This document shows positions 1 through 49,696 of a stretch of DNA of 64,000 nt, in pieces. A program made the position numbers and the translations under genes. The notes beneath the pieces are model-generated. The model searched no databases and was not told where the DNA came from. It worked only from the letters and a program-made list of their open reading frames with translations. This DNA comes from Paramecium tetraurelia. Its lineage: Eukaryota. The first letter of the stretch is position 1. Each line of letters begins with the position of its first letter. Location: the NCBI GenBank assembly GCA_000165425.1, contig CT868163.1, forward strand, positions 372,001 through 436,000, written 5' to 3'.

Positions 1-435
1 GAAAAAGACATCCTAATGAACATGTTTACATTAATAAAATAGTATATTAACAAATAATCATTAAAATTAATATATATTTTTATGAACATTTTAACTTTAT
101 TTAAATATATATATTCAAATATAATACAAAATGACACTAATATTTTGTAAGTCATTTAGTATAATAAATTGATATTTAGAAGTGTTGGGTGTAATATCAT
201 ATAATAATAGGTATGCCATATTAAATCATATTTTATAGGATTTCAATTGAAATCTGTGGATTGTTTAAAGTACCACAATTCAATTGATAAATAACATATA
301 ATTAATATATATATTGACAGCTCAGTAGTGATTTTAATTCATATTGAATCATATATCCGTTCTGATTATGTTAAACATAATCATTGTCATCATTGCAGAT
401 AATTTTTTAATTTTATTATTAATAATAATAATATA

Positions 436-1360
436 ATGTCGATTCAACTTCAATAGTAAATTAAGAATAATGCATTGGAAATCAAAGAATATATACACGA
501 TCTCTATGATTGGGAAGAGTCAGTGAACACAGCTTAAAAGCCATAAAAAAAATAAAATTAACAAATAGATCCAAACTCAGTGCCAATAAGAGGCAAAGTT
601 GAATAGGAGAAGCAATCTGAAATATTAAAGAAATAATTGAAAAGAGATTAGAATTCAGTGTAAAATTATTATGATGCTTGGAATAAAGTGGATGTGGATA
701 AATTGCTAGAAGAATCTGACGATCCCATAGTAATGGATGTTTACAAAAAACCCTAACAAACAAATATTAATAATAAAATAGTAATAAAAGGTGGTAGAAA
801 CGTAATTAAGTCGCAAGTGATTCTAAATAAAGAGCAAGCCAATGAATTATTTAAGCTATAAGAATTTTAAAAAGCCATTGAAAAATACACTGATTGCATT
901 TAAGAATTAAATTAGAAATAGTCCTTAAATGAGGAAGAATTAGAATAATTAGTAATAATTTATTCGAATCGAGCTCAATGCTAATTAAAATTACTTGATT
1001 ACAATCAAGCTTTATTAGATTGTAACAAAGCATTAAGTTTGAATAGCAACCATTAAAAATCATTGCTAAGAAGATCGACAGTTCTTTAAGAACTAGGAAA
1101 ATGGAAGGAAGCCTTAAAGGATAGTGAAAAGCTTGTTTTGTTAGGAGATCAGGATGCCAAACAAATAGTAGCAAAACTCTAGAAGAAAATTTAGGTGAAA
1201 AAGGAAAATGCTAGAAACTAATTGAAATAAGTCAAAGTAATTGATATTTCTAAATTAGCCTTTCATGAATGATTCAGTGACAGTCTAAGTTATTGATTAA
1301 GAAAAAGAAGACATTAATGTGGAGCTTAAATCGAATTATTTAAATGAAATAGACGATTGA
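436..1360 (+). CDS. TPR co-chaperone, RPAP3-like
   Basis: With TAR=Gln: MSIQLQQQIKNNALEIKEYIHDLYDWEE (RPAP3-like N-terminus); TPRs KEQANELFKLQEFQKAIEKYT..IYSNRAQCQLKLLDYNQALLDCNKAL; probable short intron near 1237-1260; TGA at 1358-1360. Confidence 0.75.
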
Positions 1361-2636: not shown

Positions 2637-3814
2637 ATGAGATGCTAAGTTTCAATTTAGAATTTACAAAATTACAAATGTTGTATACATATGTAAAATA
2701 ATAAATTCACACTTGCATAAGGAAGGATAAAATGAAATTAGTAGTAAAATTAGATCTGTACTTATGTATTATGGAAGGAAATTTAGGAATAAAAATTCAG
2801 AAGTTGTGCTTGAGTAAAACAATGGTGAACTAATATCAGCTCATAGGCCCTTATCAGCATTAGATGAGGAATTTACAAACAAATAATAAGATTTCACATA
2901 GGATATCTTTATATTTATGCATGCAATAGTTAGAATTCTAAACTTATAATAATCTTAGAGAGTATTTGTGATAACCATAATGTTATGATTAATAATGATC
3001 ATAATTTTTGTAGATATTTATAATCATGCAAATGCTTGATGATCTTATAAGAAAAATTGTTATTTTCTATTGTTTTAATCCTAGCTCTTTTTTATTATAA
3101 CAATGTTTTAATCCTTCCATAAATTATATTACTTTAGACAAATCCACCAAACTCTTTCATTTTAATTTAATTACATACTCACTGACAAATTGGAAAATTA
3201 CTTAATATTTGAATCCTAAACAGTATCTCTTAAATAAACCAAAATCTTTCAAGCCTATTACTAAAGTTTTCATGTGGAAGAGTTGCATCTTATATTTTCA
3301 CTTGGTTATTTTGTTTTCTGATTAAATATTAAAGTTGAATATAAAATAGCAAATTCTGAAGTTGATACAGCATAAAGGTTTCATCTCCCATTGCTAAATA
3401 ATTGGGTTAGTCTTCTCTAAAAATTAAAAACAAATCTATTATTGTTTCTTAAATTCATTATTAAAAAATTAGATGAGAAACTAAGATAGAAGAAAGAATC
3501 CAATGATTTGAAAGTTTAAAAGTACTCATGTATTTAAAAAAAATTAAATCTTTAATATCAGAATAATACCTATTTTTACATTAATTTCAAGTCATTTCTA
3601 AAAATAATAAGAATAAATTTGTTCATTCGTCAGTTGGTGGATCAAATATTCAATTTTCAATATGATATCGATCATAAATATATTAATTAAATGATTAATT
3701 TAGATTTTTATAAGGCTATTAATTAGATAGAAATATCATTTAATGAATTCTAAGCAATTATTAAATATTTTAATACTTAGATTCAAAATAATATCATCCT
3801 CTCTCTTAGAGTGA
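2637..3814 (+). CDS. Hypothetical protein
   Basis: Long TGA-poor frame from ATG 2637 to TGA near 3812-3814; no motif recognised; exon structure not resolved. Confidence 0.45.
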
Positions 3815-3912
3815 GGGGAAATAAACATATTTTGTAAAAAACATCAAAAATTATTTATTATCAACCTGGACAAATATTTTATAATTTTTATTTATTAATG
3901 TACTTTAAACAA

Positions 3913-4555
3913 TCATCTTGCACCCTTTCCTCTTCTTGCAGTGTGGCTAACATATGGCTTAGCATGAGATCCTGGTAGACCTGCTGCTCTGCCGAAATGT
4001 TTTAATTCTTCTCTCACTCTTGGTCCTCTCAATAATATTGTTCCTGTGCCTTAAAATAATTCATATATTATCATACCTGTTGGATTTTATTGTGCTAATT
4101 GATCGAATGTCAATGTTTTTCCACCAGCTGCAAGAATTCTCTTTCTGGCTGTTTCAGTGAATCTAAGTGCACAAATGTTAAGTTTAGGGACAGTAAGAAG
4201 TCGTACGCTAAAGGCATGATAGATATCCTTACTCATCTGTAACAGTGCCAACAACAACTAATGTTCTTGACTTATCTTTAGCAGTATTAATTTATTTGAC
4301 AAGTCTGCTTACACTAATTGGATATCTAGCAGTTCTGGTTTATTAAAGTCTTCTTAAAACTGTTGCATTGAAATTGGAATCTGTTCTTCTGGCTAAGAAT
4401 TTATATAACTATGATTAATTCATTCATTATTACCTTTATCAATAATTTCAAATAGAGGTTAGTTGATGTTACTTTTCTTCCTACATTTCTTTATACTCTT
4501 GTCTTTTTATATGCGTCGACTCCCTACCATGATTAATTGTGATATTCATTACCAT
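3913..4555 (-). CDS. RPL18: 60S ribosomal protein L18 (eL18)
   Basis: M/intron/[85 protein letters not shown]; four short introns. Confidence 0.95.
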
Positions 4556-7071: not shown

Positions 7072-7470
7072 CACATAGACTGATAGAAATAAGAAATACT
7101 AATAACTTGACAGGTATTCAATAAGAAGTAGAAAAATAAAATCTCTCCTGACATCATACATAATTAAGTAATTCACTACCTTAAGTTTGGATAATAATCT
7201 AATAACATCTATCTAATCACTTAGCCAACAATAATTTCTTTATCTAAAAGATGCAGAAGACATCAAAGTCGAGGGATTGGAGTTCTAATCACAAAATGTA
7301 AATCTCAAAATCTCATTAACTACATCTGTTCACTTACTCTACGATACCTATATTCCATGATACTAACTATCAGAACAATTAAAGTCTCAGTAATAAGAAC
7401 CCCCTTAATATCATAATATCTGTTATAACAACCGCAAATCTCTCATAATCATGGGTCATTTGTAATTCAA
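7072..7470 (+). mobile_element. Degenerate APE/EEP endonuclease fragment, possibly a non-LTR retrotransposon remnant
   Basis: Across frames, in order: SPDIIHNQ (~PDIIxLQE), RHQSRGIGVLI (~RxxxGGGVxIL), TYIP, LIIMGHL (ggtcatttgtaat resembles ggtgattttaat, GDFN). Confidence 0.45.
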
Positions 7471-7566
7471 AATATTAATAATTGAATTATAACAATTGGT
7501 GTATCCAAATCTCTTAGGTATTTAAGCTAATTGAAAATCCAAATAAGTACATTAATTAAATAACAA

Positions 7567-7788
7567 ATGAAAGCCTTTCTTTTAGTATGCCTCCTTGCTA
7601 CATCTTTGATGGTTAATGCAGTTGAAATTCCTTAAGATAAAGTCCTAAGCTCACAATCAGATTACCCCAGCTTCCTCCACGTTGAATAAGTATGCCCTAG
7701 TTGTTGCTATGGTGTATGCTGCCAAAACTAAAGTAGCTGTGTTAAAGGAACGTGTAATTCACCAGTTGCCCCTTGGAATTGTATCTGA
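7567..7788 (+). CDS. Secreted cysteine-rich prepropeptide, copy A (73 aa)
   Basis: MKAFLLVCLLATSLMVNA-VEIPQDKVLSSQSDYPSFLHVEQV-CPSCCYGVCCQNQSSCVKGTCNSPVAPWNCI*; intronless; intact paralogue at 9772-9993. Confidence 0.85.
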
Positions 7789-9771
7789 GAATGATCGATT
7801 ATATATTCACATCATAATTAAGGCAATCATTATTATTGTACTTGTCTTCATTATCATTACTTTTTATTTTCTCATGTCTAAAACGAATATTACATATTTT
7901 TGAAATTGTTTAAATTTCAAATTTTTCCTTCTTTTTTTTCTCAATCTCATAGCATTAAAATACCCTTTCCATTCATATTTCCATTACATCTTTCTTCTTT
8001 TCTTTAGTGCATGTTGATTGACAATTCATTATTCTTAAAAGAAATTTTTTTGAACTGAGAATTTGAATATTAAATCTCAGAATTCATATTTCTTTATTAA
8101 GGCCCGAGCTTTCTAATTAGCATGCCAAAGAGATTCATTTAATCCGCTTTATTTATATGTTTGAAAATCAAATTTGTAATATTTATAAAACAAAAGTGTC
8201 TACACATTCTCACTCAAATTCTTTTAGTTAATTCACAATTTAAAGCTTAGACATAGCATATTCTCTAGCATATTTTTCGTAAAGATAAAATAAATCAAAA
8301 TAATTTTCTTTCCGTATAACAAAGGTAAAAATTAGATGGTCAATGCCATTAAATTGCCAAAATAATGTATTTACATTGATACTATATTATAAGCTCATTT
8401 TACTCGAATTTATTTATTATATACAAAATAAAGAGATTTAACATTGGAGGTTTTGCATGATTAAATAATTATATATTTTATNNNNNNNNNNNNNNNNNNN
8501 NNNNNNNNNNNNNNNNNNNNNNNNNNNNNNNNNNNNNNNNNNNNNNNNNNNNNNNNNNNNNNNNNNNNNNNNNNNNNNNNNNNNNNNNNNNNNNNNNNNN
8601 NNNNNNNNNNNNNNNNNNNNNNNNNNNNNNNTTTAGGTTTAGTTCCCCAATTTTGAAAGCCTTAAGCCATAAGCATTTTCTTTCAGGCAATATTTTTTCG
8701 TTAAAGGATAAAAATTAAATCAAAAATAATTTTTCCTTTCCCGTAAAACACAAAGGTTAAAAATTAAGTGGGTCCAATCCCATTTAAATGCCCAAAATAA
8801 TGTATTTACCATTAATACTATATTATTAAGCTCATTTTACTTGAAATTATTTATTAAATATTAATTTAAAGAGTTTTAACATTGGGGCCTTAGCTTAATA
8901 AAATATTTAAATATTTTATAATAAAATGCAATTGGTAAATCCATTTCTTTAATAATTGCCGTCTAATTTTTATTTATTAATAAATAAATTAAAATAGATA
9001 GTTCTATTATAAAAAAAAATGTTGTTAAAACAAAAAAAATTTTTATTGTTAAAATGCTATCTTTATAAATTAAATTACTTGATGTTTGATTATTTTGTTA
9101 AACTGAAATTAAAAAGAACAATTAATTGGATGTATATATATTTTTATAGGTTATTATTAAATGTGCTGCGCGTTGCTCCTTATTTATCGAAATTTCCTTA
9201 TAATGGAAGTTATAAAATCATAATTTATATTTCATTCTAATGCTCATTTAGATAACTTCATTAAAATTTAAGAAGATAGTATTATATTATTAAAAAATTT
9301 TTAAAATGCATTTATTTTCAAAGAATTTGATATTTTAATTTTTATTTAATAGAGTGCTCTATTTCATGTTTATGGTTACTTATTGTGTTATAATTCGGAA
9401 TACCGACCTTCATCAATTATTAATGCTATATCTGAAATAATGAATTTCTGCTTCTCTGCTTTTTTTTTAAAAATATACTAATCCCTTTCTGTTTTCATTT
9501 AATATTTGGTCGAGTCTATATGCATATTCTTGCAAAAATAATCTAGCCCTTCATATTAATTGTCAATTTTAAGACAAGAAAGGAGAATAATTGTTTTGTA
9601 GATCGAAAATCAAAAAATATTCAATTCAACACAATATGAAGTAATGCACAAAAGGTTTTATTTTAAAATTCAATCCATGGCAAAGTTTACAGCCATTGTA
9701 TTTCGAAAAAATGAGATTTTAATGATATAATGATTGTCTTAATTATGACTTGAATATATAATCGATCATTC

Positions 9772-9993
9772 TCAGATACAATTCCAAGGGGCAACTGGTG
9801 AATTACACGTTCCTTTAACACAGCTACTTTAGTTTTGGCAGCATACACCATAGCAACAACTAGGGCATACTTATTTGACGTGGAGGAAGCTGGGGGAATC
9901 TGATTCTACGCTGAATGTTTTCTCTTATGGAGTTTCAACTGCATTAACCATCAAAGATGTGGCAATGAGGCATACTAAAAGAAAAGCTTTCAT
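9772..9993 (-). CDS. Secreted cysteine-rich prepropeptide, copy B (73 aa)
   Basis: MKAFLLVCLIATSLMVNA-VETPQEKTFSVESDSPSFLHVKQV-CPSCCYGVCCQNQSSCVKGTCNSPVAPWNCI*. Confidence 0.85.
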
Positions 9994-10099
9994 TTGTTAT
10001 TTAATTAATGTACTCATTTGTATTTTCAATTAGCTTAAATACCTAAAAATTTGGATACACCAATTGTAATAATTCAATTATAACTGTGATTCCTATTGA

Positions 10100-11250
10100 T
10101 TCTAATTATATAATTCTTATTAACTTTTATAATGCACTCTACCATACATTAAGATGTTTTGGAACTCCAAATCATAAACCTTTCATATTTCTATTACACA
10201 TAAAGCCATTATTTGTGCTCTGAATCTGAAAATTAACAACAAATTAGAATTTTTTTTTTACTTAAAAGCAATTCTAAGTCGAGAATAATTTCAAGGATTC
10301 TTTTAGTTATAGCAAAAGAATTCCTAATGATTAAAAATATATAGATTTTATTATAATTTTGAATAGAAGTGATAGGTTTAGAAGAATTTAGTTATTGTTG
10401 AGAGTTGAACTCTACTAATGGATTATGCAATAAAAATGATATTTATAGAGCTTAGGTGGGTAATTATTACTATTACTGCATATATATTATGTTATTATAA
10501 TATAATGTATATACAAAAAATCCAGTACTTTTATCTTTATGAAAAATATATGTGTCTCAAAAAAATAAGAAGAAGTAATTAGAAAGGTTTGATCAATTTC
10601 TATAATAAAAATTTAAGGGAACACTCTAAATGACATGTTTAAGAAGTTACACTTTGGTAAATTTTATAAGCTATAAAGAATTCAAACTTCATCAAGATAT
10701 CATTTTTAATATGATTTCTTTATAATCTTTTATAGCTTTATATATTCCACTTTGATTTTGTTTTCAATGTTATTAAAATAAATTTGCTAAATAGTTTTCC
10801 TGTTTTTAACATTTTCTAAAATATATATTAATACAAAATAAATTCTCCGTTTAAAAATGAAATCTGATATAATAATAAAGGGGAAAGAATTGCATTAAAT
10901 TGTAAAAATGGAGAATTTCAAAAAAGAGATAAATGAATAAGTAAAAATCTTCTAAATGATAAAATCGTCTTAAATGTATTGTAGTGAATTATTCAAAATC
11001 CTGTTCTAAATATTAATAGAGATTAATTTTTGCTTATTTATGAATTCGAACTATAAATCTCAACTTAAAATTGATTATGATGGATGATTTATATATATGG
11101 ATGATATAATTCATTCTCTTATAAATTAAGATTGCTTTTTTTATGTAGAATATTTGATATGATGATGGAATTGACACATTTAGTTATAAATGAGAGATCG
11201 ACTACCTCTTTGGAATCTTTAAATTTTTATTCCCTTTAAGTTATCCCTAA
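10100..11250 (+). pseudogene. Possible decayed Cys-rich surface-protein gene remnant
   Basis: Scattered fragments (TNGLCNK, RLKCIV, KSCSKY, YDDGI) interrupted by stops and frameshifts. Confidence 0.2.
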
Positions 11251-11980: not shown

Positions 11981-14900
11981 TCATTAATATGTATCTATCC
12001 CTAGTTCTTCAAATTCTTCTAACCCAAATTATTCTTTCTGATTTTTCGTCTTAAACCATAAAAAAGTTAATGCTGATATGAAAAATATTATAAAAAATGC
12101 TAAAAAAGCATATTCAAATCCAAAAACTATTTATTAGTCAAAATTAAAAGTATAATTAGCAGTCACATTATTCACTAAATTAAAAGCAGTTAATTTGCAT
12201 TAAGTTTATTAATTTTAAAGATGGATTTCAACTTTTAGGCTACTAATGAGATAATTCTATAACTTAGTATATATGAATCCATAGGAACTATTAAATGTTA
12301 AGATATTTTAGTAATAAGCAAAAAAATTTGATATATTCGCAGAAGGTAAAATTGGATATTCTAAATATCCTCCTATTAAATCTAAACCAGAAATATTGTA
12401 AAGAATATTAATAGCAGAATAATTATTCTCATTCAAATAATTTACAAACACTAAATCACTCGAGATAATTGCATCCTTAAATTAAAATGAATTGTTAGGC
12501 ACTAATGGAGGAGAATAATATAATAATCGGTTGAATGCGAGAGTAGATAGGGAAAAATTCCTTTCATTAACCATATAATTTAATCTGATAATAATGCTAA
12601 GCTAATTGGTAAAGCACATTATCGCAATTTGATTTTTATGTTATGAAACTATTAAAAGTCCTTCAATTTAAGATTCAAAATGTATGTAATCTTTAAGCTA
12701 TATATGTTGAGGTAGAATAAACGATATTTATTCACCTTAATAACTGTTTCCTAATTGATAATATAATATTCCTTCATCTTTACATGTATAAATATTGGCA
12801 TAAAAAGAGTAATTAGAATTCTGATAAACGTAGGGCTGAAAGCTCGTCATATTGCATTATGCTTGGATACCATGAGAAATATTCAAATTTATATAATAAA
12901 TTGTAATCTGTTATGGAGAATAAATGTAAAATACATCGTCTAATAATATTGTCTTTAAATAAGAATCACGATTAATACTAGTCAAATATGTCATTTCACC
13001 TAAAGATTAGTTTGTTATATTGATCCTAAATAAGTCATAATAGTAAAGGTGCAATTTAGATATGCAAACTAAAAATATATATTAAGAATTCATTTAGACT
13101 AATCGGCTGGGGAGTGGTTGGCTATAATATTATTAGTTTGTTATATTTTTCCAATTCCCTTTTGGAGTTATATTAAAAATTTATAAATAAATATTTGAGT
13201 TAGTATTATGGTAGATCAAAACTGATTAATTAAACACAGCACTAACAAAACTACCTTAGTTAAGTTTAAACTAATTTGTTTCATTCACAATATTGATAAC
13301 TTGGGAATTAGAATTCCCATCGCAACTTATTGAAAAACCATCCAACTTATCCACTAGAAGTTATATTATCTGATGTTAAAATGACATGATTTTGTGAAAC
13401 ATTATATGTCTAATTCTTCATTAAAATATTCAAAATATCATTCAAAATGATAATTTGTTAATTAGAGGGATAATAAATAACATTTTGTCCACCAATTTAT
13501 GATGAAAAAGAAAAATAATCAATGTAAAAACAAAGTATTATAACATTCATGAACATAAACTGTGTTTTAGGTTGATAAACGTATGATCGAAATGGCGATA
13601 ACTAAAAAAATAACCGCCTTGAGTGATCTCCGAGCGCCTTCTTGTGACGCGCCGCTCTTGAGTTTGTGTCTCTCTCTCGTAGTCGTCGTTGTCAGCTCGG
13701 CTCCATTATCGTTCACTGTTTGACCTCCTGCCGCCTGTTCTCGCGCGCCTGGATTCTCAACCTTGTTTTCCTCTTTCGTTTGAGCATCATCCCCTCCCTT
13801 CTCTGCGCATCATTGAGTATTCTTTGAGCTTTCCCTACTTCTTACCTTCTTTACNNNNNNNNNNNNNNNNNNNNNNNNNNNNNNNNNNNNNNNNNNNNNN
13901 NNNNNNNNNNNNNNNNNNNNNNNNNNNNNNNNNNNNNNNNNNNNNNNNNNNNNNNNNNNNNNNNNNNNNNNNNNNNNNNNNNNNNNNNNNNNNNNNNNNN
14001 NNNNCTAGCCGTCATATTCTCTGATGTTCAAATGACATGCTTTTGTGACACCTTATATGTCTAATTCTTCATCAACATATTCACAAAATCTTTCAAAATC
14101 ATCATTTGTTCATTAGAGGGATCATTAATAACATTTTGTCCTCCCATTTATGATGAAACCGCCCTCTTCATAATTGTTAGACCAAAGTGTTATATCATTC
14201 GTGATCATATTCTGTGTTCTTAGGTTGATAAAAGTATACTAAAGTTGGAGATAACTCATAAAATTAAGAATTGAATGATATCAAAGCGCCATCTTAAGAA
14301 GCACCACTAATAAGATTGAATCTATCTATAGTAGAAGTAGTTGTAAAATAGGATCCATTATAGTCAAATGTATAAAATAATGAAGAATGTTCAAGCACAA
14401 ATGGATAATAAACATAGATTTAATCATTAGTTTGAACATAATAAAATAAATTATCAGCAAATAATTGAATATTATTTGAGTCTTAAATACTTCTCAAATT
14501 CTTTTCAAAATATGGGGAGTTCAAGTTTGCAACATTCCAGACTTAAAAACAAACAAATTAATTCTATTAGCAATAATAACTTAATATCAACCGATTATTT
14601 ACAATCTTAATATCCTATACTTGAGCTTTGACATGTATAATACTATTTATTATATAATAATAATTTGAAGATGCAATTTATCCAACAATAATGTCACTAT
14701 AATTATCATTAATAAATAAAGTCGATGATTATTATTGTTAATTTAATGCTAAACCTACTGGTTTTATAAGATCTTTAATTTTTAAATTATTGCAAATTCC
14801 ATTAAAACGACATATTTATATTATATTTGATTCAAGTAAAAGTACAATCTATTAATAAAATAAATAGAATTATTAAAAGGGTTAAAAAGATAAAATAGAT

Positions 14901-16671
14901 GTTACATTATCAAACTCTTAACAATGATTACATATAAATAATTATTAACTGTTAATTTAAACTCCAAAATAAATATCATTCAAAAAACAATAACCTTAGA
15001 TTTGATTATTAATTCTATTTATCGGAGAATTAATTGTAAAATTCTAAGTAAAATTGAAATAAAATTGACTTCCAAAAGTTTATATATTTAATAACAAAAT
15101 ATTTTGGTTTATTATTACAACAGCATAACTTTTATTTAGAAATTATAAATTTTGAAATGATTAATTTATGGAGCCTACATTTTAAAATGTTATATCATTA
15201 AAGTATCCAAGGCTTGAATTTTCTACTGAAAAATTTACAGTTAAGAGGGAACCTGAAAATTGTAAGATTGATTATAGATGAGGAATTTGAGTTTAAAATT
15301 AATACAAAATTTAATCGCGAAACCCATAAGTTAAGTATATGTTATTATCATTAATTGAGAGAACAGTAACATTTAACTATACCATGCAGTTTTAGCACTT
15401 AGAAGCATCAGTTTAATTTGTCTAATATGGGCTTCCTTGAATAATAAATTGATAATTTGTTTAATTCTAATGAGACTCAAATTTTATCTTAGAATAATCT
15501 ACATAATAAGTCGAAATCTAAGTATCACTAAATATAAATAACAAATTGCTATTATAATCAAAGGAAACTTAAGCTAATGAAGAATTTAATTGTAGCTCTC
15601 CAGTCAATTTGAAATTCTATTTAAACTTTGTATTATTTTTGTAAATCTAGTAATTCTTTTAACTTGTTTCAATCTCATAAATTTCTATTAGATCAAAGTA
15701 TTTTACAATTAAGAACTAATTGCTTAAGAAAATTGATGAGTTTTAGTTAAAACGAATAATAGTTTTATATTAACCATATGAATATGCTGCATACTAATAA
15801 CATACATGCTATTCAAAGCTGTAATCTTTGAGAATTATTTATAAAGTATCGCATTCATAAAATATTATTTATGGATTGAATATTTAAACTGCCATGATTT
15901 AAGAGGGAAATCTATAAATAATATTTGTTGAATTCAACCCATATTCATTAACATTTAATTGATACAAAGTATTATTATTCCATAAGTAAATTGCATTTTG
16001 AGATTAGGATTTATTAGAAACTATAAAGTTAATAAATGGTTATATCCAAATAGAAATATTTTATAATAAATTTTGACTAAATTGAAACTGAGTTAAAATA
16101 TCATAGTCATCATAATATTATGCATATAGAATAGAATTAATAGAATTACTAGTAAATGTTTTAAGGTCAGTATTTTTTGGTTTTTATGGAACTAATACTG
16201 AATAAACAATAGTCCAAGCATTCTCTTGATAATTATAAATATTTAAATTAGTCAAATTGTAGCAGTCTATTATTATTGAATCTTCCTAAGTTAGTAAAGC
16301 ATTCAAACAAGTTTATTGTGGTAATTCCATTTAATTTATGAGATTTAAATAAGTTGAATTCCAAAAATAAAAATTTAATACATGAGCTTATGTAATTAGT
16401 AAGTAGTATGGGAATGAGGAGGATATAGAAATAAATGTTTAATCTAAATAACATATCTAATAATACTATTATTCTATTCAGATATTAAATTTAAGGCCTT
16501 AAGTACTTGAACATTTTTGGGGCAATCCAAAATAGTGAAGTTTAGATTTTTTTCTTTAAATAATTCATTCATTTGTAGGGAATAAGTTTCTCCCTAAGTT
16601 AGGTATACATTATAAGAGGGATATAATGCCTAGCCATATAATGTTATAAATAGACAAGATAAAAAGATCAT
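11981..16671 (-). CDS. Large single-pass membrane protein, paralogue of 52519-56366 (spans an assembly gap and duplicated contig end)
   Basis: MIFLSCLFITLYGQALYPSYNVYLTQGETYSL..; C-terminal TM FEYAFLAFFIIFFISALTFLWF then KTKNQKEQFGLEEFEEL; integrity not fully checked. Confidence 0.7.
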
Positions 16672-17767
16672 TAATTAATAATAAATGAATTTTAAGATTT
16701 TTAATATGTGAAATAGTCACCCTAGTCTTTTTAATATTCTTGCATTATAGATTAGTCATTTTTATTTCTTGAACTTCGTTTTATGCATATACATTTTTTT
16801 TGCATATTAAATTTTGTACAAAATTCACAAATAACATGATATAATTGATATAAATAGTACATAATTATTTTAAATGCTCAATAAATAAATTAAAGCTAAT
16901 TAAAATAGATTATTTAGATATCTAAATGCTTAAGATCTGAATGTTATATAGTGATGCTAATTTGTGTTATCAATTAATATTTGGTTAAAATTTATTCTTA
17001 AATTTAAATCAATTTAATTGAGTTATTGAAGTATTATTATCCTTTATATTTCTATTTCAAAGTTAAGAATATTGTATCAGAAATATTCATAATATTTTAT
17101 TAATTTAAAGTTGTTACAAATTTTCATTATTAAATTTTATGATCATAAATCTTGCATAATACTTAAAAAATAGGCTTAAATTAAGAGACATTAAAATGTA
17201 ATAGTGCCTTTGTAATAGATATAGCAAAAAAAAATCTATTTTATTAAGGAACTATCTGCAGAAATGAAAAAGATAAGACCATATGCGAAATAATTTATTT
17301 AGGAATAGAGAAAGCTCAACTTACTTTAATCGGTGACTCTTAAGAAATCCCTTATAACCTGTAAAAATTAGTTTTAGAATATATAGTTAGTTGTTTAAAT
17401 AAATAGGTTTAAGGCTATAAAATCGCATATAATTTTAATTAAAAGCACTATAGAAATTTGAGTTAAATCAATATTATAAATTGATGAGTCAATATTTGAT
17501 GTCGTCGATAATTTATTGAGGATACTTGGCACCAGCATTTTAATAATAGTTATAAAAAGTTTGAATATAGTGTCCTTTACAGTGAATAAGTACCAAAATA
17601 AAGAGAAGTGATTATAGTATTTGTTTTAAATTGATTTAATTTTAATTTTTATTGAATTATCTTTATTTTAAGAATAAAGAGATAAGAATTAAAAACTGAT
17701 GAAAATTATAATAAAGGATTTATATTTGAATATAAATAAATATGCTATCTACAATTAAACAATTATT

Positions 17768-18157
17768 TCAAAATATGTCTTCCAAATTTATTCTTTAAGA
17801 AATTCTGCTTCTTTATTTTTTCTTCGATTTAGATTTTTTTTGTGGTGATTTCATTCTAGGATTCTAAATATACTCTGGCTTATTAGAAACTTGAGGAGTA
17901 TTCCAAGAAGGAGTTTCTCTGCTATCATCTATGTCATTGAGTTACTCTTCCTTTATGGTGGTTTGAAAGAATATAAAACACTACTTATTAACTTCTATTT
18001 CATTAATTCCTAAATTTATGTCATCAATTTCATCATCATACTAACAGAGTTTAGGATAATATTAGAATGTCTTAGGTACATTAACTGTAATTGTATTATC
18101 CTCATCTAAATATTCAATCTATGATTTCAATTAACTAGAATGGATGAGTGCCCCCAT
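17768..18157 (-). CDS. Hypothetical protein (129 aa)
   Basis: MGALIHSSQLKSQIEYLDEDN..SRISQRINLEDIF*; 390 nt, in frame. Confidence 0.6.
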
Positions 18158-18293
18158 TAATTATGTGTAATATAAAATTATTATTGTTTAAAGATTTATC
18201 AATGAGCATCAATTTATGGAGAACAGTATTATATTAGCAAAATTAAAATAAATTAGAATTGTTTTATATTAGAATGAATTTTTCAATTTAAAA

Positions 18294-19414
18294 TCATTAA
18301 CTATTTTCCTATACTACTAATTACAACATCAAAGGTACAAACTTTTTTGTTTCTTCATGTGTTATGTATTGTAACAAACTCTTGTTATTGCTAATCATTT
18401 TTTCAATTTCTTCTACTTAATATGTCAAAAGATCACTTGGATTATGTTTAATGTTTACTTTAAAGTGTAATTATAGATGTTTTCAAATGCTTCTTTGCTA
18501 AGCACTTGTTATAAATATGATCTTAAGCCTTATGGATTATTAAAGTAATCCAGTCCGACATCTTAGTTTGTTGTTTTAGCAGTTTTTGTTAGATTTAGAT
18601 CGTCTTCATCATCATCATCTTCTAAATCATCAAAATCCAGACCATCTCCAAGATCAAATTATTCCAATATCTATTATCTTTTTTTTTCAAATTAAGGATC
18701 TCATAATTGATTCACAATATTATTAGTTTCCTACACTTCCTCAAGCTAATGATAAATACATTCAACATACCACTTTCTCATACTCCTTACATAAGATTGC
18801 TTATTATAATGCATCTATTTCAGCATCATTTTCCTGTTGTACTAATCCATAATCCATATTTGGTTCGTCTTGATCTTCAAGTTCCGCTTCTTAGAATTGC
18901 TTTTTATTACTCTATTAACCTTCAGCTTCATAAGTTTCTTCTTCACTATTATACTCCTCCAAATTATCATCCAAATTTTCAGGTTATGAGATCGTTTGTC
19001 TAACAATATATTTCGGTTCACTTTCAAGATTTGGTTAACTTTATTATTATTATATTTATTATCTTCTTTTTTGGAGATCCTCTCTCATATCTTTTTATTG
19101 TTATTCTCTCTTCTTTTTTTGATCTTCTTTAAATCTTTTTTTTGCCTCCTCTTCTTATTGCATTTTTATTAACTTTCTCTTTTCCTCCTCTTTTCTTTTA
19201 ATATCAGCTTCTAATTTAATTTACTACATTCTTTTTCTTTCTTATTCTTATTTTTCTACATCCACTAATTTATTCTTGCTGTTATTCCTTTGTTTTTATG
19301 GTTATACAGCTGTATTTGGCTTTTATTATTCACGTCTTGGTTATTACGAATATTATTTTGGAGGTTATATAACATGCTATTAAACTAAAGGTTTTTNNNN
19401 NNNNNTTTTTATTA

Positions 19415-21065: not shown

Positions 21066-22680
21066 TCAAATATCTTAAAGTAAATTCAATATTTATTAAG
21101 GTGAATATCTTTATTTAGGATTGATAGCTAACATTCCTTTTAATAATTAAGTTAATAAAGGAGTAACTTGAATACCAGAATAATTTTATTCTCGCAATAC
21201 AAATTCTAGATTAGTCAGTATCTTAATTTATTTTTCAACGATTTTACTAAAACTCCGACCAGAAACAGCAAAGAGACCTTAAGCCATGACTTTCTGACCC
21301 TTATAATTGATTACTTATGTATCATAACTCATCCATAAAGGCAGTCCTGATATGATTTCCAAGACAACACATCCTAATCCCCATATGTCTATAACCCACG
21401 ACTTATCATAATTGACAAGGGATTCAATTAACTGATTATCGTAAGACATCTTGTTCTCTCTAAGTATGAAAGTTAGCATCTCTGGGGACATATACTCAGG
21501 GGTTGCCATTGAAAACTTTTCAAAGACTTCAGCAAATTTGAAAGATGAACCATAGTCTATTATTTTAAATTCGACATCTTATGATCCATAAGAGATAAGA
21601 ATGTTTTCACTTTTAATATCACTATGGACCCAACCAGTTTTGACTAACAATTCTAAAGTTTAGGTGATTCTTTTGATAAACTTGAATAAAAAGACAGGAA
21701 ACTACTTAAAGAGCAAACTTAATTTCTATGGAATTAACTACCATGTATTCTTATTATACCTTATAACTATTATTGAGGGATTCAAAGTCATACAATTAAG
21801 TTCCCAATGAATATCCACAAACTTCATACATTATAAATACATCGTGAGGATCAATAACATAATCTAGCATCTTGCATAAGTATTTAATCCCTTCATTTTA
21901 CTAAAATTAACTCCTTATTTAACCTCCTTTGTTAAAAAACTAAGTGCAAAATGCTAATTCTTTGAAATGAGTTTCATGTTTAGATTTCCTTGGGATCTAT
22001 TTAACAGCACACAAAGCACCTCCCTTCTATTCTTTAGCTAACCAAATCAATGAAAAACCTCCTCTTCCCAATAGTTTCTCCCTTTGAAATCCAAAAGGGA
22101 ACCTATTTCCAAATTTATCCCATTCTTCTATCGTTAACTCAAATTATTAAACAAACGACTTGGCATCAACTATTTGATTCTTATTGACCCCAATAGACTA
22201 AAATAGAGATTACTGTTGCTATCTTTGTTGTTATTATTATTGTTGTATAGAATACGATCTTTATTTTTGACTTGTATATAAGGATTGTCTATTTTAATTA
22301 TTAGGAGATTAATTGTAATCTCCGATACTATTATTTCTTTTAGTCGATATAGATCTTTTTGTTTATGCCTAGCTTTTTTGAGTTAGTTAAATTAATTTCA
22401 ATTGATTTGGGAATTCATTCTCTGAATCTGATTATTGTTGAGTCAACATCCTGTTTGTTCTGTTACCCAATAATCCTTTGTTAATTTTCCACTTATTTGT
22501 ATATACACTTTGATCTATCTTATTTAAAGGAGAATAATTTAAAGAAATCTAAACTTGATAATAGTTACTTACTTGCTTTGTGTTTCGTGTGTCATCTACT
22601 TCAGTTTAGATATTAAGTTTCTATCTGCAATACAGTTATTTTAACTAGAGCTGCTGTTGCTATTTTAAACTCTTCTTCAT
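21066..22680 (-). CDS. Ser/Thr protein kinase (non-RD; HSD and DYG motifs, CMGC/DYRK-like)
   Basis: LLGRGGFSLIWL, CAVKQI, VHSDIKSENILI, IIDYGSS, ATPEYMSPE, DIWGLGCVVLE. Confidence 0.88.
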
Positions 22681-32192: not shown

Positions 32193-33505
32193 ATGTGTCT
32201 TACTGTTGCATGTGAGGCTGTGTGTTGTGCAGGAACACAAATTTGTAATCTTGCTTGTTGTTGCTGTAAGTACTTTGCTGAAACAACCTTAAAAGAGCAA
32301 ATAAAATTAGCTTACATACTCTTAAACTATTTAATCATGGCATTTACTGTGATTGCATTGTACTACATTTAAGATTTTTATATCAATTATCTACATTATT
32401 TTGGATGTCCAGAAGGAATTTCGAATTTATGTTTGGGAATATCAGGCATCTATAGGATGAGTTTTGTTCTTACAATATTTTATATCATAATACTATTGTT
32501 TATGTGTTAAAAAGGATGGTTGGCTAAGATGATAAACGATGGATTATGGTTGCTCAAATTCATGTAAACATGATTTATATGATAAATAGATTCATAACAG
32601 TGTTTTTTTATGGAACACTCTATATGCCAAACCGATTTTTTGAAGTCTTTGTAGACATAAGTATCGTTGCTTCAGGGATATATCAGCTATTTTAAATAAT
32701 TATCTACATTGATATTTTCTACTTGTGGGCTGAGAAGTGGGCAAGAATGTATGATGACGGAATTGAAGGAATGGGATCAGCTTTGGTAGCTGCAGCTTCA
32801 TTAACATTTACATTAGCTTTAATCCTAAATATCTACAATTTTATTTGGTTCGATCATAATTACATCATCAACCTTATTAATATTGCAATAATAATCTTAT
32901 TAACAGTAGTTTAATTATTTGGATTCAATCCTAACGGATCTCTACTCGCAACAGGGTGTATCTCTTGTTATATAACATACTAGACTTTTAGTGCATTATC
33001 CAGTTATCCAAATGCAGATATCAATATATTTTATGATTCTGAAAAGAACATGAAAGTCTAGATGTTCGTTAATGGAATCTTAAACTTTGTTGCATTGATT
33101 TACATCATATTTGCTACATAAGAACAAAGCAAATAGGCATTAGCAATCTTAGATAAATCAAATGAAAAGAAGAGATCAAATCAAAATTCAAATCAATAGA
33201 TTGAAATCGAAATGACTTCTACTCAATAAATGAATGAAGCTAAGGCTTTAATTGAATAAATTGAATTACAACCTTACTCGACCAATCAATATATTGTATT
33301 CCATATTGTCATGACCTTTTGTTCAATGTATATGGCTATGATGATTACGAATTGGGGTAGTCCGAGCATCAGAGTTGGCACTTTTGAATTGTATATGCCT
33401 AGTCAACTCAGTTATAATGTGAAAATAGGATCAAGTTGGATTTGCTCTGGACTTTACTTTTGGACTTTGATTGCTCCAAGAGTTCTGCCAGATAGATTTA
33501 ATTGA
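32193..33505 (+). CDS. Serinc (serine incorporator/TMS) family membrane protein
   Basis: Cys-rich N-terminus, CLGISGIYRMSF, NDGLWLLKF, NPNGSLL, FHIVMTFCSMYMAMMITNW, VKIGSSWIC..YFWTLIAPRVLPDRF. Confidence 0.92.
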
Positions 33506-36992: not shown

Positions 36993-37950
36993 TCATTAAT
37001 TAAAAGTGTTCAGAAACCAACCATCCGGGATTATTTATAAATTAGATTCATCAGAACAACTTATTAATTTACCATTTTGCCATTCTCCAAATTTCTTCTT
37101 TCCCTCTTTATTTATCATAAGTCCTTTTCCATGTTATTTTCCATCCAGCCAATATCCTTAGTATTATTTTCCATCAGGCCAATTAAAGATACCGAATCCA
37201 GACTTTTTATCAGCTTCGTATTCCCCATCATAGTATTTACCGTCAATCCACCTATAGAATCCTCTGCCGTGCATTTAATTTCTAGCCCATTAACCGTAAT
37301 AAGACTATGTTCTGAATAATTAATAAATTACCCTACCGTCTGGCCATTCGTATTTGCCAATTCCATTAATCATATTATCCATCCATTCTCCATTATATGT
37401 ACTTTGCTAACTCCACTTATAGATTCCCTTTCCATTCTTTTTTCCATTTTAGAACTCTCCCTCATAAACAGAACCATCTGGCCATACTTCTTTACCAATT
37501 CCATTTGATTTTCCTTGCTTGAATTATCCAGTATAGACAGGTCCTCTTGCATATATACATTTTCCATCTCCTTCTAAATAATTGTTAACGAAACTGCCCT
37601 CATAGATATCGCCATTCGGCATAACTAATCTGCCAAATCCATTTGCTTTATTGTTGAAAATCGTTCCAGTATATATCCCACCACCTTCGAATTTAAGTTG
37701 ATTCTAATAACTTTCAACTTACTCCTGTTTTGATTCTTGGGAAATGTATTACTCTTTAAAAAAGGTGGAAGAGTTGGATTTGCTATCCATTGAAGGTGGT
37801 TTTTCTAATTAAAAAGTAATGATTACAAGGCTGTTTTTCATCTTCCTCTTCATATTCTGGATCAGAATCAGAACTAATTTCTTCTTTTTTATTGATTTCA
37901 CTCTGAACTCCCTCTGATCTCATTTAGCATTTCTAACATTCTTGTCCCAT
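36993..37950 (-). CDS. MORN-repeat protein with N-terminal Gly/Cys acylation-like motif
   Basis: MGQECQKC..; repeats YTGTIFNNKANGFGRLVMPNGDIYEGSF, YTGQFKQGKSNGIGKEVWPDGSVYEGEF. Confidence 0.88.
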
Positions 37951-48724: not shown

Positions 48725-49696
48725 TCATTATCCAACATACTCAAACATACTAATAAATCCATTGTTCTATCCTACTACCAATTGTTTATTATCATTTGAT
48801 ATATCAATGCATGAAACCAAATCCTTCACCTCAATTGTTTACATAAACACCCATTTATTGTCTTTCAATTATTTCATTATTCTCACTTATGAGCCTTCTC
48901 CAATAAGCAGAATGCTTGAATTCAAATTAAAATAAATCACCTCGATAGTCTTCTCACTCTAATACTGACATTATAATTCATATTTTTAACTTTGTTGGTT
49001 TTTCTCCCAAATAATAGCGTTACCCTTCTAATCAGCACCAACCAATATATCTTTTGAACTGCTAAATCTCACCTTGGTTATAGATCCTTGATGTAATTCC
49101 AATCTCTAATAGATCTACCATTCATTGTTTATTTATTTCCAAATTGATATATGACCATCTGTAAATCCAATTGCAATCTCTTGGGAATCTCGATTAAAAC
49201 TTACGCTTGTTGTAAATATGCATTCATCTTCAGTGAAAGTCTCATTCAAAGAACTTATCTCAACCCATTCTTAATTCTAATTTTCCAAAGCAACGGCAAA
49301 ATCATATAAGCATTACACCATTCTTGTTGATGTGTTATTCAATTACAATTCTAGAATTTGATTGCCTTCAGATTCTCTAATTGTTTTTGACACCCATTTA
49401 TCTTATTCCTAATTATAGCTTAGTTGATCTATTTATCCTTTTTTATGAGCATAAACGAAGCTGCCTAGTGCTTAGCTGAAAGTGCAACATTGTAATTATT
49501 AATTCTCCAAAACTACTTCTTTCAGTGCCCATTCTTTATTTTATTACTCAAGTTTAATAAAATGATCATCCTTTCCTATACTAATTATATTAGTATCATC
49601 CTTAACAAATTTAACCGATAGAATCTTAGAATTCTAATGTTTTTGGTGGCATACTTCTTGATAATAAACCTTCTTGTTTTTTGAATCTTGTTACAT
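48725..49696 (-). CDS. WD40-repeat protein
   Basis: Intronless, 972 nt; TSVSFNRDSQEIAIGFTDGHISIWK, ELHQGSITKVRFSSSKDILVGADQKGNAIIWE. Confidence 0.75.

What the first reader, a model, noticed from the sequence alone, without database searches (positions are those of the whole stretch)
7567..9993. Duplicated gene for an unrecognised secreted 8-cysteine peptide (pheromone/toxin/defensin-like prepropeptide)
Seen: two intact 222-nt intronless ORFs, absent from the standard-code ORF track, each encoding an 18-aa hydrophobic leader ending VNA, a ~24-aa spacer, and a 31-aa C-terminal peptide CPSCCYGVCCQNQSSCVKGTCNSPVAPWNCI (C-x2-CC-x3-CC-x5-C-x4-C-x8-C). Established: this pre-pro-mature layout and size is typical of Euplotes pheromone precursors, conotoxins and defensins, and Paramecium mating is considered contact-based without soluble peptide pheromones. 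Inference: a secreted peptide with up to four disulfides acting in signalling, defence or as extrusome cargo. I do not recognise the family, but I could not search databases.
Basis: partly seen in the sequence, partly recalled or inferred. Interest (0 to 1): 0.85.

Follow-up and report, generated by a model that had tools for sequence, protein, structure and literature searches.

The report
Abundant Paramecium secreted eight-cysteine peptide genes
Two facing copies of a tiny Paramecium gene are transcribed at very high levels and encode a precursor of a small, probably secreted, eight-cysteine peptide from an uncharacterised, fast-evolving family whose function is still unknown.

Summary
Under the ciliate code, 7567-7788 (+) and 9772-9993 (-) are intact 73-codon ORFs in a 355-nt inverted repeat. 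Both are real genes. Stranded poly(A) RNA-seq covers copy A at about 3,000-4,000x and copy B at about 15,000-18,000x, with no introns and untemplated poly(A) tails. The pair takes 0.25-0.31% of all reads read. Relatives were found only in Paramecium and in unnamed environmental contigs. They keep all eight cysteines and nearly the same spacing. None of the 13 members matches a Pfam family, and no solved structure matches significantly. The two window copies share a 125-nt identical tract over the mature part, yet their pro-segments differ at 14 of 72 nt. The same two pro-segment types occur in P. octaurelia. This points to an old duplication with gene conversion of the mature part. Between species, the mature part changes far faster than the A-type leader and pro-segment (14/31 against 2/42 residues, p=8e-5). 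Secretion, processing, disulfides and function are inferred. I favour a defensive or antimicrobial effector. A diffusible signal is the main rival.

The parts
7472..7566 (+). Copy A: conserved upstream block (promoter and short 5' leader)
   Evidence: About 95 nt before the ATG are about 95% identical to the region upstream of copy B, and similarity is lost further out. RNA coverage starts in 7554-7569 (X3 contig from 7554; fragment ends pile up at 7565 and 7569).
7567..7620 (+). Copy A: signal-peptide codons 1-18 (MKAFLLVCLLATSLMVNA)
   Evidence: MK is followed by a 14-residue hydrophobic core (mean Kyte-Doolittle 2.6) and V-N-A at -3..-1. A differs from B by 2 synonymous changes and 1 L/I change. 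Cleavage is inferred; SignalP was not run.
7621..7692 (+). Copy A: acidic pro-segment, codons 19-42, 'A type' (VEIPQDKVLSSQSDYPSFLHVEQV)
   Evidence: It differs from copy B at 14 of 72 nt (8 non-synonymous and 2 synonymous codons). It is 91% identical to the A-type pro-segment of P. octaurelia P0004. The motif D-x-P-S-F-L-H/Q is conserved across the family. The cleavage point is not known.
7693..7788 (+). Copy A: 31-residue eight-cysteine domain (codons 43-73) and TGA stop
   Evidence: The 8 Cys are invariant in 13 of 13 family members. AF2 pLDDT is 79-89 with short beta strands. The domain lies inside the 125-nt tract 7685-7809 that is identical to copy B.
7789..7840 (+). Copy A: 3' UTR up to the poly(A) sites
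   Evidence: Untemplated A runs follow 7832, 7835 and 7840 in X20-X22 (table 7). Depth falls to about 40-50 in bin 7805-7905 and to about 0 beyond it.
7841..9716 (.). Spacer between the convergent genes, silent in the runs laid
   Evidence: Depth is about 0 in every bin from 7906 to 9622 in X20-X22 and X3. The spacer holds the N gap 8482-8631, flanked by a direct duplicate (8230-8481 against 8640-8919, 83% identity with indels).
9717..9771 (-). Copy B: 3' UTR up to the poly(A) sites
   Evidence: Untemplated T runs (+ strand) precede 9728, 9723, 9717 and 9708 in X20-X22. An X3 contig carries a 21-T run at 9728 (table 7).
9772..9867 (-). Copy B: TGA stop and 31-residue eight-cysteine domain (codons 43-73)
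   Evidence: The nucleotides are identical to copy A over 9875-9751.
9868..9939 (-). Copy B: pro-segment, codons 19-42, 'B type' (VETPQEKTFSVESDSPSFLHVKQV)
   Evidence: It is 70% identical to the P. octaurelia B-type P0005 and 66% to the window's own A type. Copy-specific RNA depth is 14,800-18,300 in bin 9825-9925.
9940..9993 (-). Copy B: signal-peptide codons 1-18 (MKAFLLVCLIATSLMVNA)
9994..10088 (-). Copy B: conserved upstream block (promoter and short 5' leader)
   Evidence: RNA depth is 0 from 10027 outward, and fragment ends pile up at 9991 and 9995.

Best explanation
The locus is a convergent inverted pair of intronless genes in a Paramecium aurelia-complex macronuclear genome.

Shown here:
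- Each gene gives a polyadenylated mRNA of about 280 nt, sense strand only, at very high abundance.
- Each encodes a 73-aa member of a family found so far only in Paramecium and in unnamed environmental contigs.
- All eight C-terminal cysteines are invariant across the family.

Inferred from sequence:
- An N-terminal ER signal peptide is cut after VNA18.
- An acidic pro-segment carrying the conserved D-x-P-S-F-L-H motif is removed near Q41. This releases a peptide of about 31-33 residues locked by four disulfides, which leaves the cell or enters a secretory or phagosomal compartment.

Inferred from comparison:
- The A/B duplication predates the split from P. octaurelia.
- Gene conversion keeps the mature-peptide part of the two copies identical within a species, so both genes deliver one product.
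- That product diverges quickly between sibling species.

Function (my commitment, inferred): a stable disulfide-rich effector aimed at other organisms, most likely an antimicrobial or defensive peptide of a bacterivore, acting in the medium or the food vacuole.

I put about 0.9 on 'real, expressed gene pair for a secretory-pathway Cys-rich peptide' and about 0.4 on the defensive or antimicrobial role. The confidence field refers to the whole statement.
For: Genes and code: two intact ORFs with 3 in-frame TAA=Q codons each.

Expression (shares computed):
- In three oligo-dT stranded raw-read runs (X20-X22), depth is 3,026-4,043 (A, bin 7603-7703) and 14,769-18,270 (B, bin 9825-9925). The opposite strand stays at 16 or less.
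- 59,947 of 19,158,139, 68,861 of 22,429,687 and 55,860 of 22,160,365 records were laid, that is 0.31%, 0.31% and 0.25%.
- Only one joint is listed, a low-count backward joint (1-3 reads per run) that is not an intron.
- Poly(A) tails are untemplated at 7832-7840 and 9708-9728.
- A run of a second study (X3) has contigs carrying a 21-T tail.

Family:
- phmmer against 1.84 billion representatives gave 3 hits at E<=0.001, one of them the window's own ORF.
- Profile searches gave 8, then 13 hits. The named ones are P. octaurelia, P. sonneborni, P. pentaurelia and P. primaurelia 'unnamed protein product'. There are also 4 JGI/ENA environmental proteins.
- In the 13-sequence alignment the 8 Cys are invariant, and CC-x3-CC-x5-C-x4-C-x7/8-C is fixed.

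Secretory precursor: the layout is MK, a 14-residue hydrophobic core and a small residue at -1 in 12 of 13 members. The pro-segment is acidic, with 2-5 D/E against 0-2 K/R. Met15 is not conserved, so the leader is translated.

Fold: the AF2 mature part has pLDDT 79-89 with beta strands.

Conversion:
- A 125-nt identical tract (7685-7809 = 9875-9751) abuts a pro-segment with 14 of 72 nt different.
- Mature parts are 100% identical within the window and within P. octaurelia but 51% between them. The A-type pro-segment is 91% identical between species and 66% to the B type in the same genome.

Fast mature part: differing residues, prepro against mature, are 2/42 vs 14/31 for winA-octA (Fisher p=7.7e-5), 0/44 vs 5/32 for pent-prim A2 (p=0.011), and 2/41 vs 7/32 for pent-prim B (p=0.037).

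From established knowledge: a conserved prepro region with a fast-evolving mature part, plus an acidic propiece, is the pattern of many host-defence peptides, venom peptides and Euplotes pheromones.
Against: - No experiment or predictor here shows signal cleavage, propeptide removal, disulfides, secretion or any activity.
- The mature peptides carry only +1 to +2 net charge, low for classical cationic antimicrobial peptides.
- No basic or dibasic processing site precedes the Cys domain, so a 55-residue product without pro-cleavage is equally possible.
- The prepro-slower-than-mature contrast is not significant for the B-type pair (12/42 vs 14/31, p=0.22) or for octA-sonneborni (9/42 vs 13/33, p=0.13).
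- Homogenisation is not universal. In P. primaurelia the A2 and B2 mature parts are only 75% identical.
- Without DNA from the other species I could not compute dN/dS, so relaxed constraint between the cysteines is not excluded.
- All raw-read evidence comes from three similar samples of one study, so nothing is known about regulation.
- RNA 5' ends pile up at or just inside the ATG (7565/7569 and 9995/9991). If those were true starts, part of the mRNA would lack the start codon. I read this as 5'-end loss in library preparation, because an X3 contig starts at 7554, but that reading is an inference.
Confidence: 0.4

Rival explanations
1. The peptide is a diffusible signal. It would be a species-specific autocrine growth or cell-density factor, or a recognition factor, working like Euplotes pheromones. 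Those are also made constitutively from prepro-precursors and have conserved leaders and variable mature parts.
For: The precursor layout is the same, and the mature part diverges quickly between sibling species while the A-type leader and pro-segment stay nearly fixed. Expression in growing cultures is very high. Net charge is near neutral, which fits a ligand at least as well as a membrane-active peptide. From my own knowledge, not checked here: low-density Paramecium cultures are reported to depend on conditioned-medium factors.
Against: There is no sequence similarity to any Pfam family or PDB chain, Euplotes pheromones included. The AF2 model is beta-rich, not a helical bundle. In established knowledge, mating types in the P. 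aurelia complex are set by a ciliary membrane protein and cell contact, not by soluble factors. Both copies give the same peptide, so the locus does not encode alternative types. No receptor or response is known.
Confidence: 0.2
2. The peptide is a cargo or accessory of the secretory pathway and has no outside target. Examples would be a component of trichocysts or the surface coat, or a small disulfide-rich protease inhibitor that protects the cell or its secreted enzymes.
For: A signal-like leader and pro-segment are present, and trichocyst proteins are also made as processed precursors (established knowledge). mRNA abundance is very high, as expected for a bulk structural or stoichiometric product. 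Small four-disulfide domains are often protease inhibitors (general knowledge).
Against: Fast divergence of the non-Cys positions between sibling species is unusual for a structural cargo. No Pfam inhibitor or trichocyst-matrix family is hit in any of 13 members. No localisation data exist.
Confidence: 0.15
3. The peptide is not secreted. It would be a cytosolic metal-binding, metallothionein-like peptide translated from a downstream start.
For: The C-terminal 31 residues are 26% Cys with CC pairs. RNA 5' ends pile up at the ATG, which would favour Met15 as a start on some transcripts.
Against: Met15 is not conserved: it is absent from P0005, P0014 and P0015. The 18-residue leader is conserved at protein level, with synonymous changes between A and B. 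Aromatic residues and fixed Cys spacing fit a disulfide fold. No metallothionein family is hit in Pfam. An X3 contig starts 13 nt before the ATG.
Confidence: 0.03
4. The locus does not code for protein. It would be an abundant small poly(A) RNA that happens to carry an open frame, which is easy under a one-stop-codon code.
For: ORFs are frequent here, with 34 of 40 aa or more in 3 kb, including overlapping alternative frames in both copies.
Against: Thirteen homologues keep the same frame, all 8 Cys, the leader and the length (73-79 aa) while other residues vary. The changes in the leader between A and B are synonymous or conservative. Independent annotations of four other species call the same frame.
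Confidence: 0.02

Closest known systems
Euplotes water-borne pheromones (prepro-pheromones of E. raikovi, E. nobilii, E. octocarinatus)
   Same: Both are ciliate products from a small intronless gene. Both have a signal peptide, a pro-segment and a Cys-rich mature peptide at the C-terminus. In both, the leader is conserved and the mature part varies, and expression is high and constitutive. The Euplotes side of this comparison is from established knowledge.
   Different: No sequence similarity was detected. No Pfam family matched at E<=10 in 13 of 13 members, and no pheromone chain appeared in PDB searches at E<=10. The predicted fold has short beta strands, not the three-helix bundle. The peptide has 8 Cys in 31 residues with two CC pairs. 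Both genes give one identical peptide, not alternative mating-type alleles. Paramecium mating is contact-based.
Hepcidin / LEAP-1 (vertebrate 25-residue, 8-Cys beta-hairpin peptide made from a prepropeptide)
   Same: From memory only, the hepcidin framework C-x2-CC-x-CC-x4-C-x2-CC resembles the first two thirds of this one, C-x2-CC-x3-CC-x5-C-x4-C. Other shared features are the small size, four disulfides, a beta-type structure and a signal-pro-mature precursor.
   Different: The last two Cys are separated by 7-8 residues, not adjacent. No basic furin-type site precedes the mature part. No Pfam or PDB match was found. There is no phylogenetic link. This is a resemblance of form only.
Cone-snail conotoxin precursors (and amphibian skin-peptide precursors)
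   Same: Both show a conserved signal and pro region joined to a Cys-framework mature peptide whose non-Cys residues change fast between close species. Both are small multigene clusters (the conotoxin side is established knowledge).
   Different: The framework C-CC-CC-C-C-C is not one I recall among the numbered conotoxin frameworks. The only conopeptide seen, phi-MiXXVIIA chain 6ppc_A, scored E=5.5, which is not significant. There is no basic cleavage site. The organism has no venom apparatus. Within a species the copies are homogenised, not diversified.
Cysteine-stabilised alpha-beta defensins reported from a ciliate (Laurentiella LsAMP-1/2; PMC10040121, passages read) and the Paramecium caudatum antimicrobial peptide of Cui et al. 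2016 (reference-list entry seen only; paper not held)
   Same: These are the only ciliate peptide-defence candidates I found in print. Like the window genes, they are small secreted precursors from ciliates.
   Different: CS-alpha-beta defensins need a CxxxC...CxC arrangement. The window peptide has CxxxC (C47-C51) but no CxC, and no defensin family is hit. As I recall it, the P. caudatum peptide is a linear helix-forming peptide. I could not check this.

Membership tests
Euplotes pheromones | Signal peptide, pro-segment and C-terminal Cys-rich mature peptide in one small precursor | tested here: met
   The layout is seen in the sequence and in the family conservation pattern. The cleavage sites themselves are not shown.
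Euplotes pheromones | Detectable sequence relationship to known pheromones (Pfam family or solved chains) | tested here: not met
   Pfam at E<=10 gave 0 relevant families in 13 of 13 members. The PDB profile and single-sequence searches at E<=10 gave only unrelated, non-significant rows.
Euplotes pheromones | Three-helix-bundle fold | tested here: not met
   In the AF2 model the mature part (pLDDT 79-89) has strands 45-47, 50-52 and 66-71 and no helix of 4 or more residues. This is a model from 13 sequences, not a solved structure.
Euplotes pheromones | Allelic series at one locus specifying mating types, with a diffusible activity | not testable with these tools
   This needs population data and bioassays. 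The two genes here encode one identical mature peptide.
Hepcidin | Match to the hepcidin family model or to solved hepcidin chains | tested here: not met
   No Pfam hit in 13 of 13 members and no hepcidin chain at E<=10.
Hepcidin | Basic (furin-type) cleavage site before the mature peptide; framework ending in an adjacent CC (recalled) | tested here: not met
   The residues before the first Cys are H-V-[EKQ]-Q-V, with no dibasic site. The last two Cys are 7-8 residues apart.
Conotoxin superfamilies | Match to a conotoxin family model or solved conopeptide | tested here: not met
   Pfam gave none. The best conopeptide row was E=5.5.
Conotoxin superfamilies | Conserved prepro region with a hypervariable mature region between close species | tested here: inconclusive
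   The contrast is significant for 3 of 6 pairs at p<0.04 (2/42 vs 14/31; 0/44 vs 5/32; 2/41 vs 7/32), borderline for one (p=0.045) and not significant for two (p=0.22, 0.13). There is no DNA for dN/dS.
CS-alpha-beta defensins | CxxxC ... CxC cysteine arrangement and a family model match | tested here: not met
   CxxxC is present but no CxC occurs in any member. No Pfam match.
Metallothioneins | Cytosolic protein without signal peptide; family model match | tested here: not met
   A conserved hydrophobic leader is present in 13 of 13 members. No Pfam match.
Paramecium surface-antigen Cys repeats | Match to the Paramecium surface antigen repeat model (its presence in Pfam is recalled) | tested here: not met
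   No Pfam family at E<=10 other than three unrelated single-member chance rows.
New Paramecium 8-Cys prepropeptide family (defined here) | MKA[FL]LL[VI]CL leader, D-x-P-S-F-L motif, and C-x2(5)-CC-x3-CC-x5-C-x4-C-x7/8-C in a 73-79-aa protein | tested here: met
   Both window ORFs and 11 database proteins share all of these features. The environmental member has Q-S-F-L and x5 in the first gap.

The most novel reading that the evidence does not exclude
Paramecium, long taken to communicate only by cell contact, releases an abundant, species-specific, fast-evolving four-disulfide peptide into the water as a diffusible self or species signal. It would act as an autocrine growth or density factor, or as a recognition cue between sibling species of the aurelia complex. 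It would work like Euplotes pheromones but be built on an unrelated new fold. The two gene copies would be kept identical in the signal-encoding part by gene conversion.
Probability: 0.17. Interest if true: 0.8.

Novelty: new variant of a known kind. Interest (0 to 1): 0.55.

Why it matters
If the peptide is secreted, it is one of the most abundantly encoded products of a classic model cell, yet it has no name, no family and no paper that I could find. It is missing as a protein record for this genome: the exact sequences are not in the 15-billion-protein collection.

It offers three things.
- It is a candidate first disulfide-rich defence or signalling peptide family in Paramecium. That would open the question of how a bacterivorous ciliate handles its prey, competitors or kin chemically.
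- It is a compact natural example of mosaic concerted evolution. The product-encoding part is homogenised while the pro-segments keep an ancient A/B split, and the product turns over fast between sibling species.
- It is a 31-residue four-disulfide scaffold with a cysteine framework that matched nothing solved.

It is also easy to test, since RNAi by feeding, tagging and peptide synthesis are routine for this organism.

Tried and rejected
Searches and look-ups that gave nothing:
- No whole genome is held for the window, so paralogues elsewhere in this genome could not be sought.
- The look-up of sequencing runs: no RNA holder is listed on record. 18 contig rows of 9 studies hold half or more of the sampled words, but their kind is only guessed. 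I laid 4 of the 24 runs.
- Two metagenome scans for family DNA found no confirmed relative (64 and 312 pattern matches, 0 confirmed). So no DNA of other members was obtained and dN/dS was not computed.
- ESM Atlas did not accept the window protein because it needs the ciliate code. I sent nothing else there.
- Foldseek against PDB gave 0 matches at E<=10. VIA-align wide gave 0 of 48,161 chains at Z>=2. The domain is very small, so this does not show a new fold.
- PDB by sequence gave only non-significant rows: acyl-CoA thioesterase at E=0.45, conopeptide phi-MiXXVIIA at E=5.5 and the P-selectin EGF region at E=6.8.
- Earlier findings of this scan returned nothing by place, sequence or words.

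Literature:
- Eight full-text searches found no paper on this family. The terms covered secreted and cysteine-rich peptides, secretome, antimicrobial peptide, pheromone, autocrine factor, two leader and pro motifs, three accession numbers and PcAMP1.
- The PcAMP1 search returned only unrelated plasmid names.
- Cui et al. 2016 is not held.

Considered and dropped:
- An assembly duplication of one gene is excluded by copy-specific reads and by the P. octaurelia pair.
- A link between function and neighbouring genes was dropped. The flanks hold TPR, kinase, Serinc, MORN and WD40 proteins and unnamed large membrane proteins, with nothing suggestive.
- C-terminal amidation of the ...CVQG tail is not conserved, since the window peptide ends ...NCI and the environmental one ...ITTL.
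Full report
**What is there.** Read with the ciliate code (table 6), 7567-7788 (+) and 9772-9993 (-) are two intact 73-codon ORFs.
- Each has three in-frame TAA codons, so both are invisible under the standard code.
- They sit in an inverted repeat with arms 7478-7833 and 9727-10081. The genes are convergent.
- A tblastn search under code 6 finds only these two copies in the 64-kb window, which has 25.6% G+C and five N gaps.
- With a single stop codon, open frames are cheap: 34 ORFs of 40 aa or more lie in these 3 kb. The case for a gene therefore rests on RNA and on conservation.

**Expression.** I laid three raw-read, oligo-dT, stranded RNA-seq runs of one study (X20-X22) and the contigs of a run from another study (X3) on 7300-10300, at 97% likeness or better.
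- Copy A reaches a mean depth of 3,026-4,043 in bin 7603-7703. Copy B reaches 14,769-18,270 in bin 9825-9925.
- The opposite orientation stays at 16 or less. The spacer and outer flanks are at about 0.
- The pro-segments differ too much for 58-nt reads to cross-map, and no variant letters appear there. So both copies are separately transcribed, B about 4-5 times more than A.
- The only joint listed is a low-count backward joint (1-3 reads per run) that does not fit an intron, so the genes are intronless.
- Untemplated A runs follow 7832, 7835 and 7840. Untemplated T runs precede 9728, 9723, 9717 and 9708. This gives 3' UTRs of about 44-64 nt.
- An X3 contig carries a 21-T tail at 9728, so that run is RNA too, which makes two studies.
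- Coverage begins at 7554-7569 and at 9991-9995 or beyond. The pile-ups at the ATG are probably 5'-end loss in library preparation, because an X3 contig starts at 7554. That reading is an inference.
- The pair takes 0.31%, 0.31% and 0.25% of all records read (from the counts). For two mRNAs of about 280 nt in a genome that I recall as having about 40,000 genes, this would be of the order of 1% of mRNA molecules. That figure assumes a mean transcript of about 1.2 kb, which I did not measure.

**Relatives.**
- phmmer against 1.84 billion representatives gave three hits at E<=0.001, one of them the window's own longer ORF.
- Word-seeded profile searches raised this to 13 hits.
- The named ones are all Paramecium 'unnamed protein product'. 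P. octaurelia has CAD8165083 and CAD8165085 on one contig and CAD8211026 on another. P. sonneborni has one. P. pentaurelia has four on one contig. P. primaurelia has two.
- Four further proteins come from unnamed environmental contigs. Three of them are truncated at 40-41 aa. One 79-aa protein is complete.
- The exact window proteins are not in the 15-billion-protein collection.
- In the alignment of 13 full-length members, the leader MKA[FL]LL[VI]CL.AT, a D-x-P-S-F-L motif and all eight cysteines are conserved. CC-x3-CC-x5-C-x4-C-x7/8-C is fixed. Only the first gap varies: x2 in most members and x5 in the environmental one.

**Precursor anatomy (inferred).**
- The leader is MK followed by a 14-residue hydrophobic core (mean Kyte-Doolittle 2.5-2.7). 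A small residue stands at -1 in 12 of 13 members.
- Between copies A and B the leader has two synonymous changes and one L/I change. Met15 is not conserved. So the leader is translated.
- The next 24 residues are acidic. No basic processing site precedes the Cys domain, so where, or whether, the pro-segment is cut off is unknown.
- Most other members end in ...CVQG. The window peptides stop two codons earlier, and the DNA reads TGA GAA TGA. A TAA(Gln)-to-TGA change would explain this. I could not check it without DNA from the other species.

**Fold and family tests.**
- AF2 on the 13-sequence alignment gives pLDDT 79-89 for the Cys domain, with short strands at 45-47, 50-52 and 66-71. The leader and pro-segment are below 50.
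- Foldseek against PDB gave nothing at E<=10. VIA-align wide gave nothing at Z>=2 among 48,161 chains. For a 31-residue domain this says little.
- Pfam at E<=10 gave no relevant family for any of the 13 members.
- PDB sequence searches gave only non-significant rows.
- So the peptide is not a detectable member of the Euplotes pheromone, conotoxin, defensin, hepcidin, metallothionein or surface-antigen families.
- The cysteine framework resembles that of hepcidin as I recall it. That is a resemblance from memory, not a test.

**Evolution.**
- Within the window, the two copies are identical over 125 nt: 7685-7809 equals 9875-9751, running from codon 40 to 21 nt past the stop.
- They are about 95% alike over the 95 nt upstream and the leader. 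They differ at 14 of 72 nt in the pro-segment, with 8 non-synonymous and 2 synonymous codons.
- The two pro-segment types (A 'EIP...', B 'E/DTP...') recur in P. octaurelia, P. pentaurelia and P. primaurelia.
- The window A-type pro-segment is 91% identical to the P. octaurelia A type, but 66% to the window B type.
- The mature parts are 100% identical within the window and within P. octaurelia, and 51% between the two species.
- The simplest reading is an old duplication, with gene conversion homogenising the product-encoding part and the 3' UTR.
- Homogenisation is weaker elsewhere. The P. pentaurelia pair is 93% identical in the mature part, and P. primaurelia A2/B2 is 75%.
- Between species the mature part changes faster than the prepro region. 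The counts are 2/42 vs 14/31 (p=7.7e-5), 0/44 vs 5/32 (p=0.011), 2/41 vs 7/32 (p=0.037) and 10/42 vs 15/31 (p=0.045).
- The contrast is not significant for the B-type window-octaurelia pair (12/42 vs 14/31, p=0.22) or for octaurelia-sonneborni (9/42 vs 13/33, p=0.13).
- Without coding DNA from the other species I cannot separate positive selection from relaxed constraint.

**What it most likely does.**
- Shown: a real, very highly expressed gene pair of a family known so far only from Paramecium and unnamed environmental contigs.
- Inferred: the product enters the ER, is trimmed and is exported as a four-disulfide mini-protein.
- A stable disulfide-rich product, an acidic propiece, huge expression in bacteria-fed cultures and fast turnover between sibling species fit best with an effector aimed at other organisms, antimicrobial or defensive. 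I put about 0.4 on this.
- The low net charge of +1 to +2 weakens the classical antimicrobial-peptide picture.
- The main rival is a diffusible species-specific signal, at about 0.2. It would be the more surprising result, given that Paramecium mating is contact-based.
- Cargo or inhibitor roles get about 0.15. Metallothionein-like and non-coding readings are unlikely.

**Novelty.** I found no paper on this family in eight full-text searches. The nearest items in print are in-silico CS-alpha-beta defensins from another ciliate (PMC10040121, passages read) and a P. caudatum peptide paper that I could only see as a reference. The kind of thing, a secreted Cys-rich prepropeptide, is well known. 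This family, its cysteine framework, its abundance and its mosaic concerted evolution are not described as far as I could see.

**Limits.**
- No genome was available for the window's organism.
- No DNA of other family members was obtained.
- The Atlas search was not possible.
- Only one physiological condition was sampled by raw reads.
- No supplementary files were consulted.

Noticed in passing
window 8230-8481 and 8640-8919 (flanking the N gap 8482-8631): About 250 nt before the scaffold gap recur directly after it at 83% identity, with many small, mostly homopolymer-type indels. This looks like the same sequence assembled twice from poorer reads. If so, the true spacer between the two peptide genes is probably about 400 nt shorter than it appears.
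   Followed up: partly
window 9772-9993 versus 7567-7788: Copy B is covered 4-5 times more deeply than copy A in all three raw-read runs, although the 95 nt upstream are about 95% identical. The few upstream differences (7507-7545) or sequence further out may set the level.
   Followed up: no
window 7786-7794 (and 9766-9774): The stop is followed in frame by GAA TGA. Most other family members are two residues longer (...CVQG). The window species therefore seems to have gained an earlier stop, which a TAA(Gln)-to-TGA change would explain. Both copies share it.
   Followed up: partly
window 11981-16477 (-) and 53319-56366 (+): Two long ORF sets encode clearly paralogous large proteins with no Pfam match. 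Both are rich in N-x-S/T sites and end in a hydrophobic segment followed by a shared acidic tail (...FGLEEFEELGIDTYQ and ...FGLQEFEELEIDTFQQ). They look like a duplicated type I membrane protein family (translations).
   Followed up: no
window 1-1272, 21066-22046, 32405-33505, 36993-37853, 48725-49861: Ordinary neighbours identified by Pfam: a TPR protein, a protein kinase, Serinc, a MORN-repeat protein and a WD40 protein. Nothing suggests a functional link to the peptide genes.
   Followed up: no
run X13: One run labelled with a different organism code (organism B) holds 61% of the sampled words of copy A. This could be a very close sibling species, a mislabel or a mixed culture.
   Followed up: no
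P. octaurelia, P. pentaurelia and P. primaurelia accession order: Family members lie two to six accession numbers apart on one contig in each species (083/085; 878/882/884; 393/397). So the locus is a conserved small cluster, with two pairs in pentaurelia and primaurelia. P. octaurelia also has a third member on another contig, possibly a whole-genome-duplication copy.
   Followed up: partly
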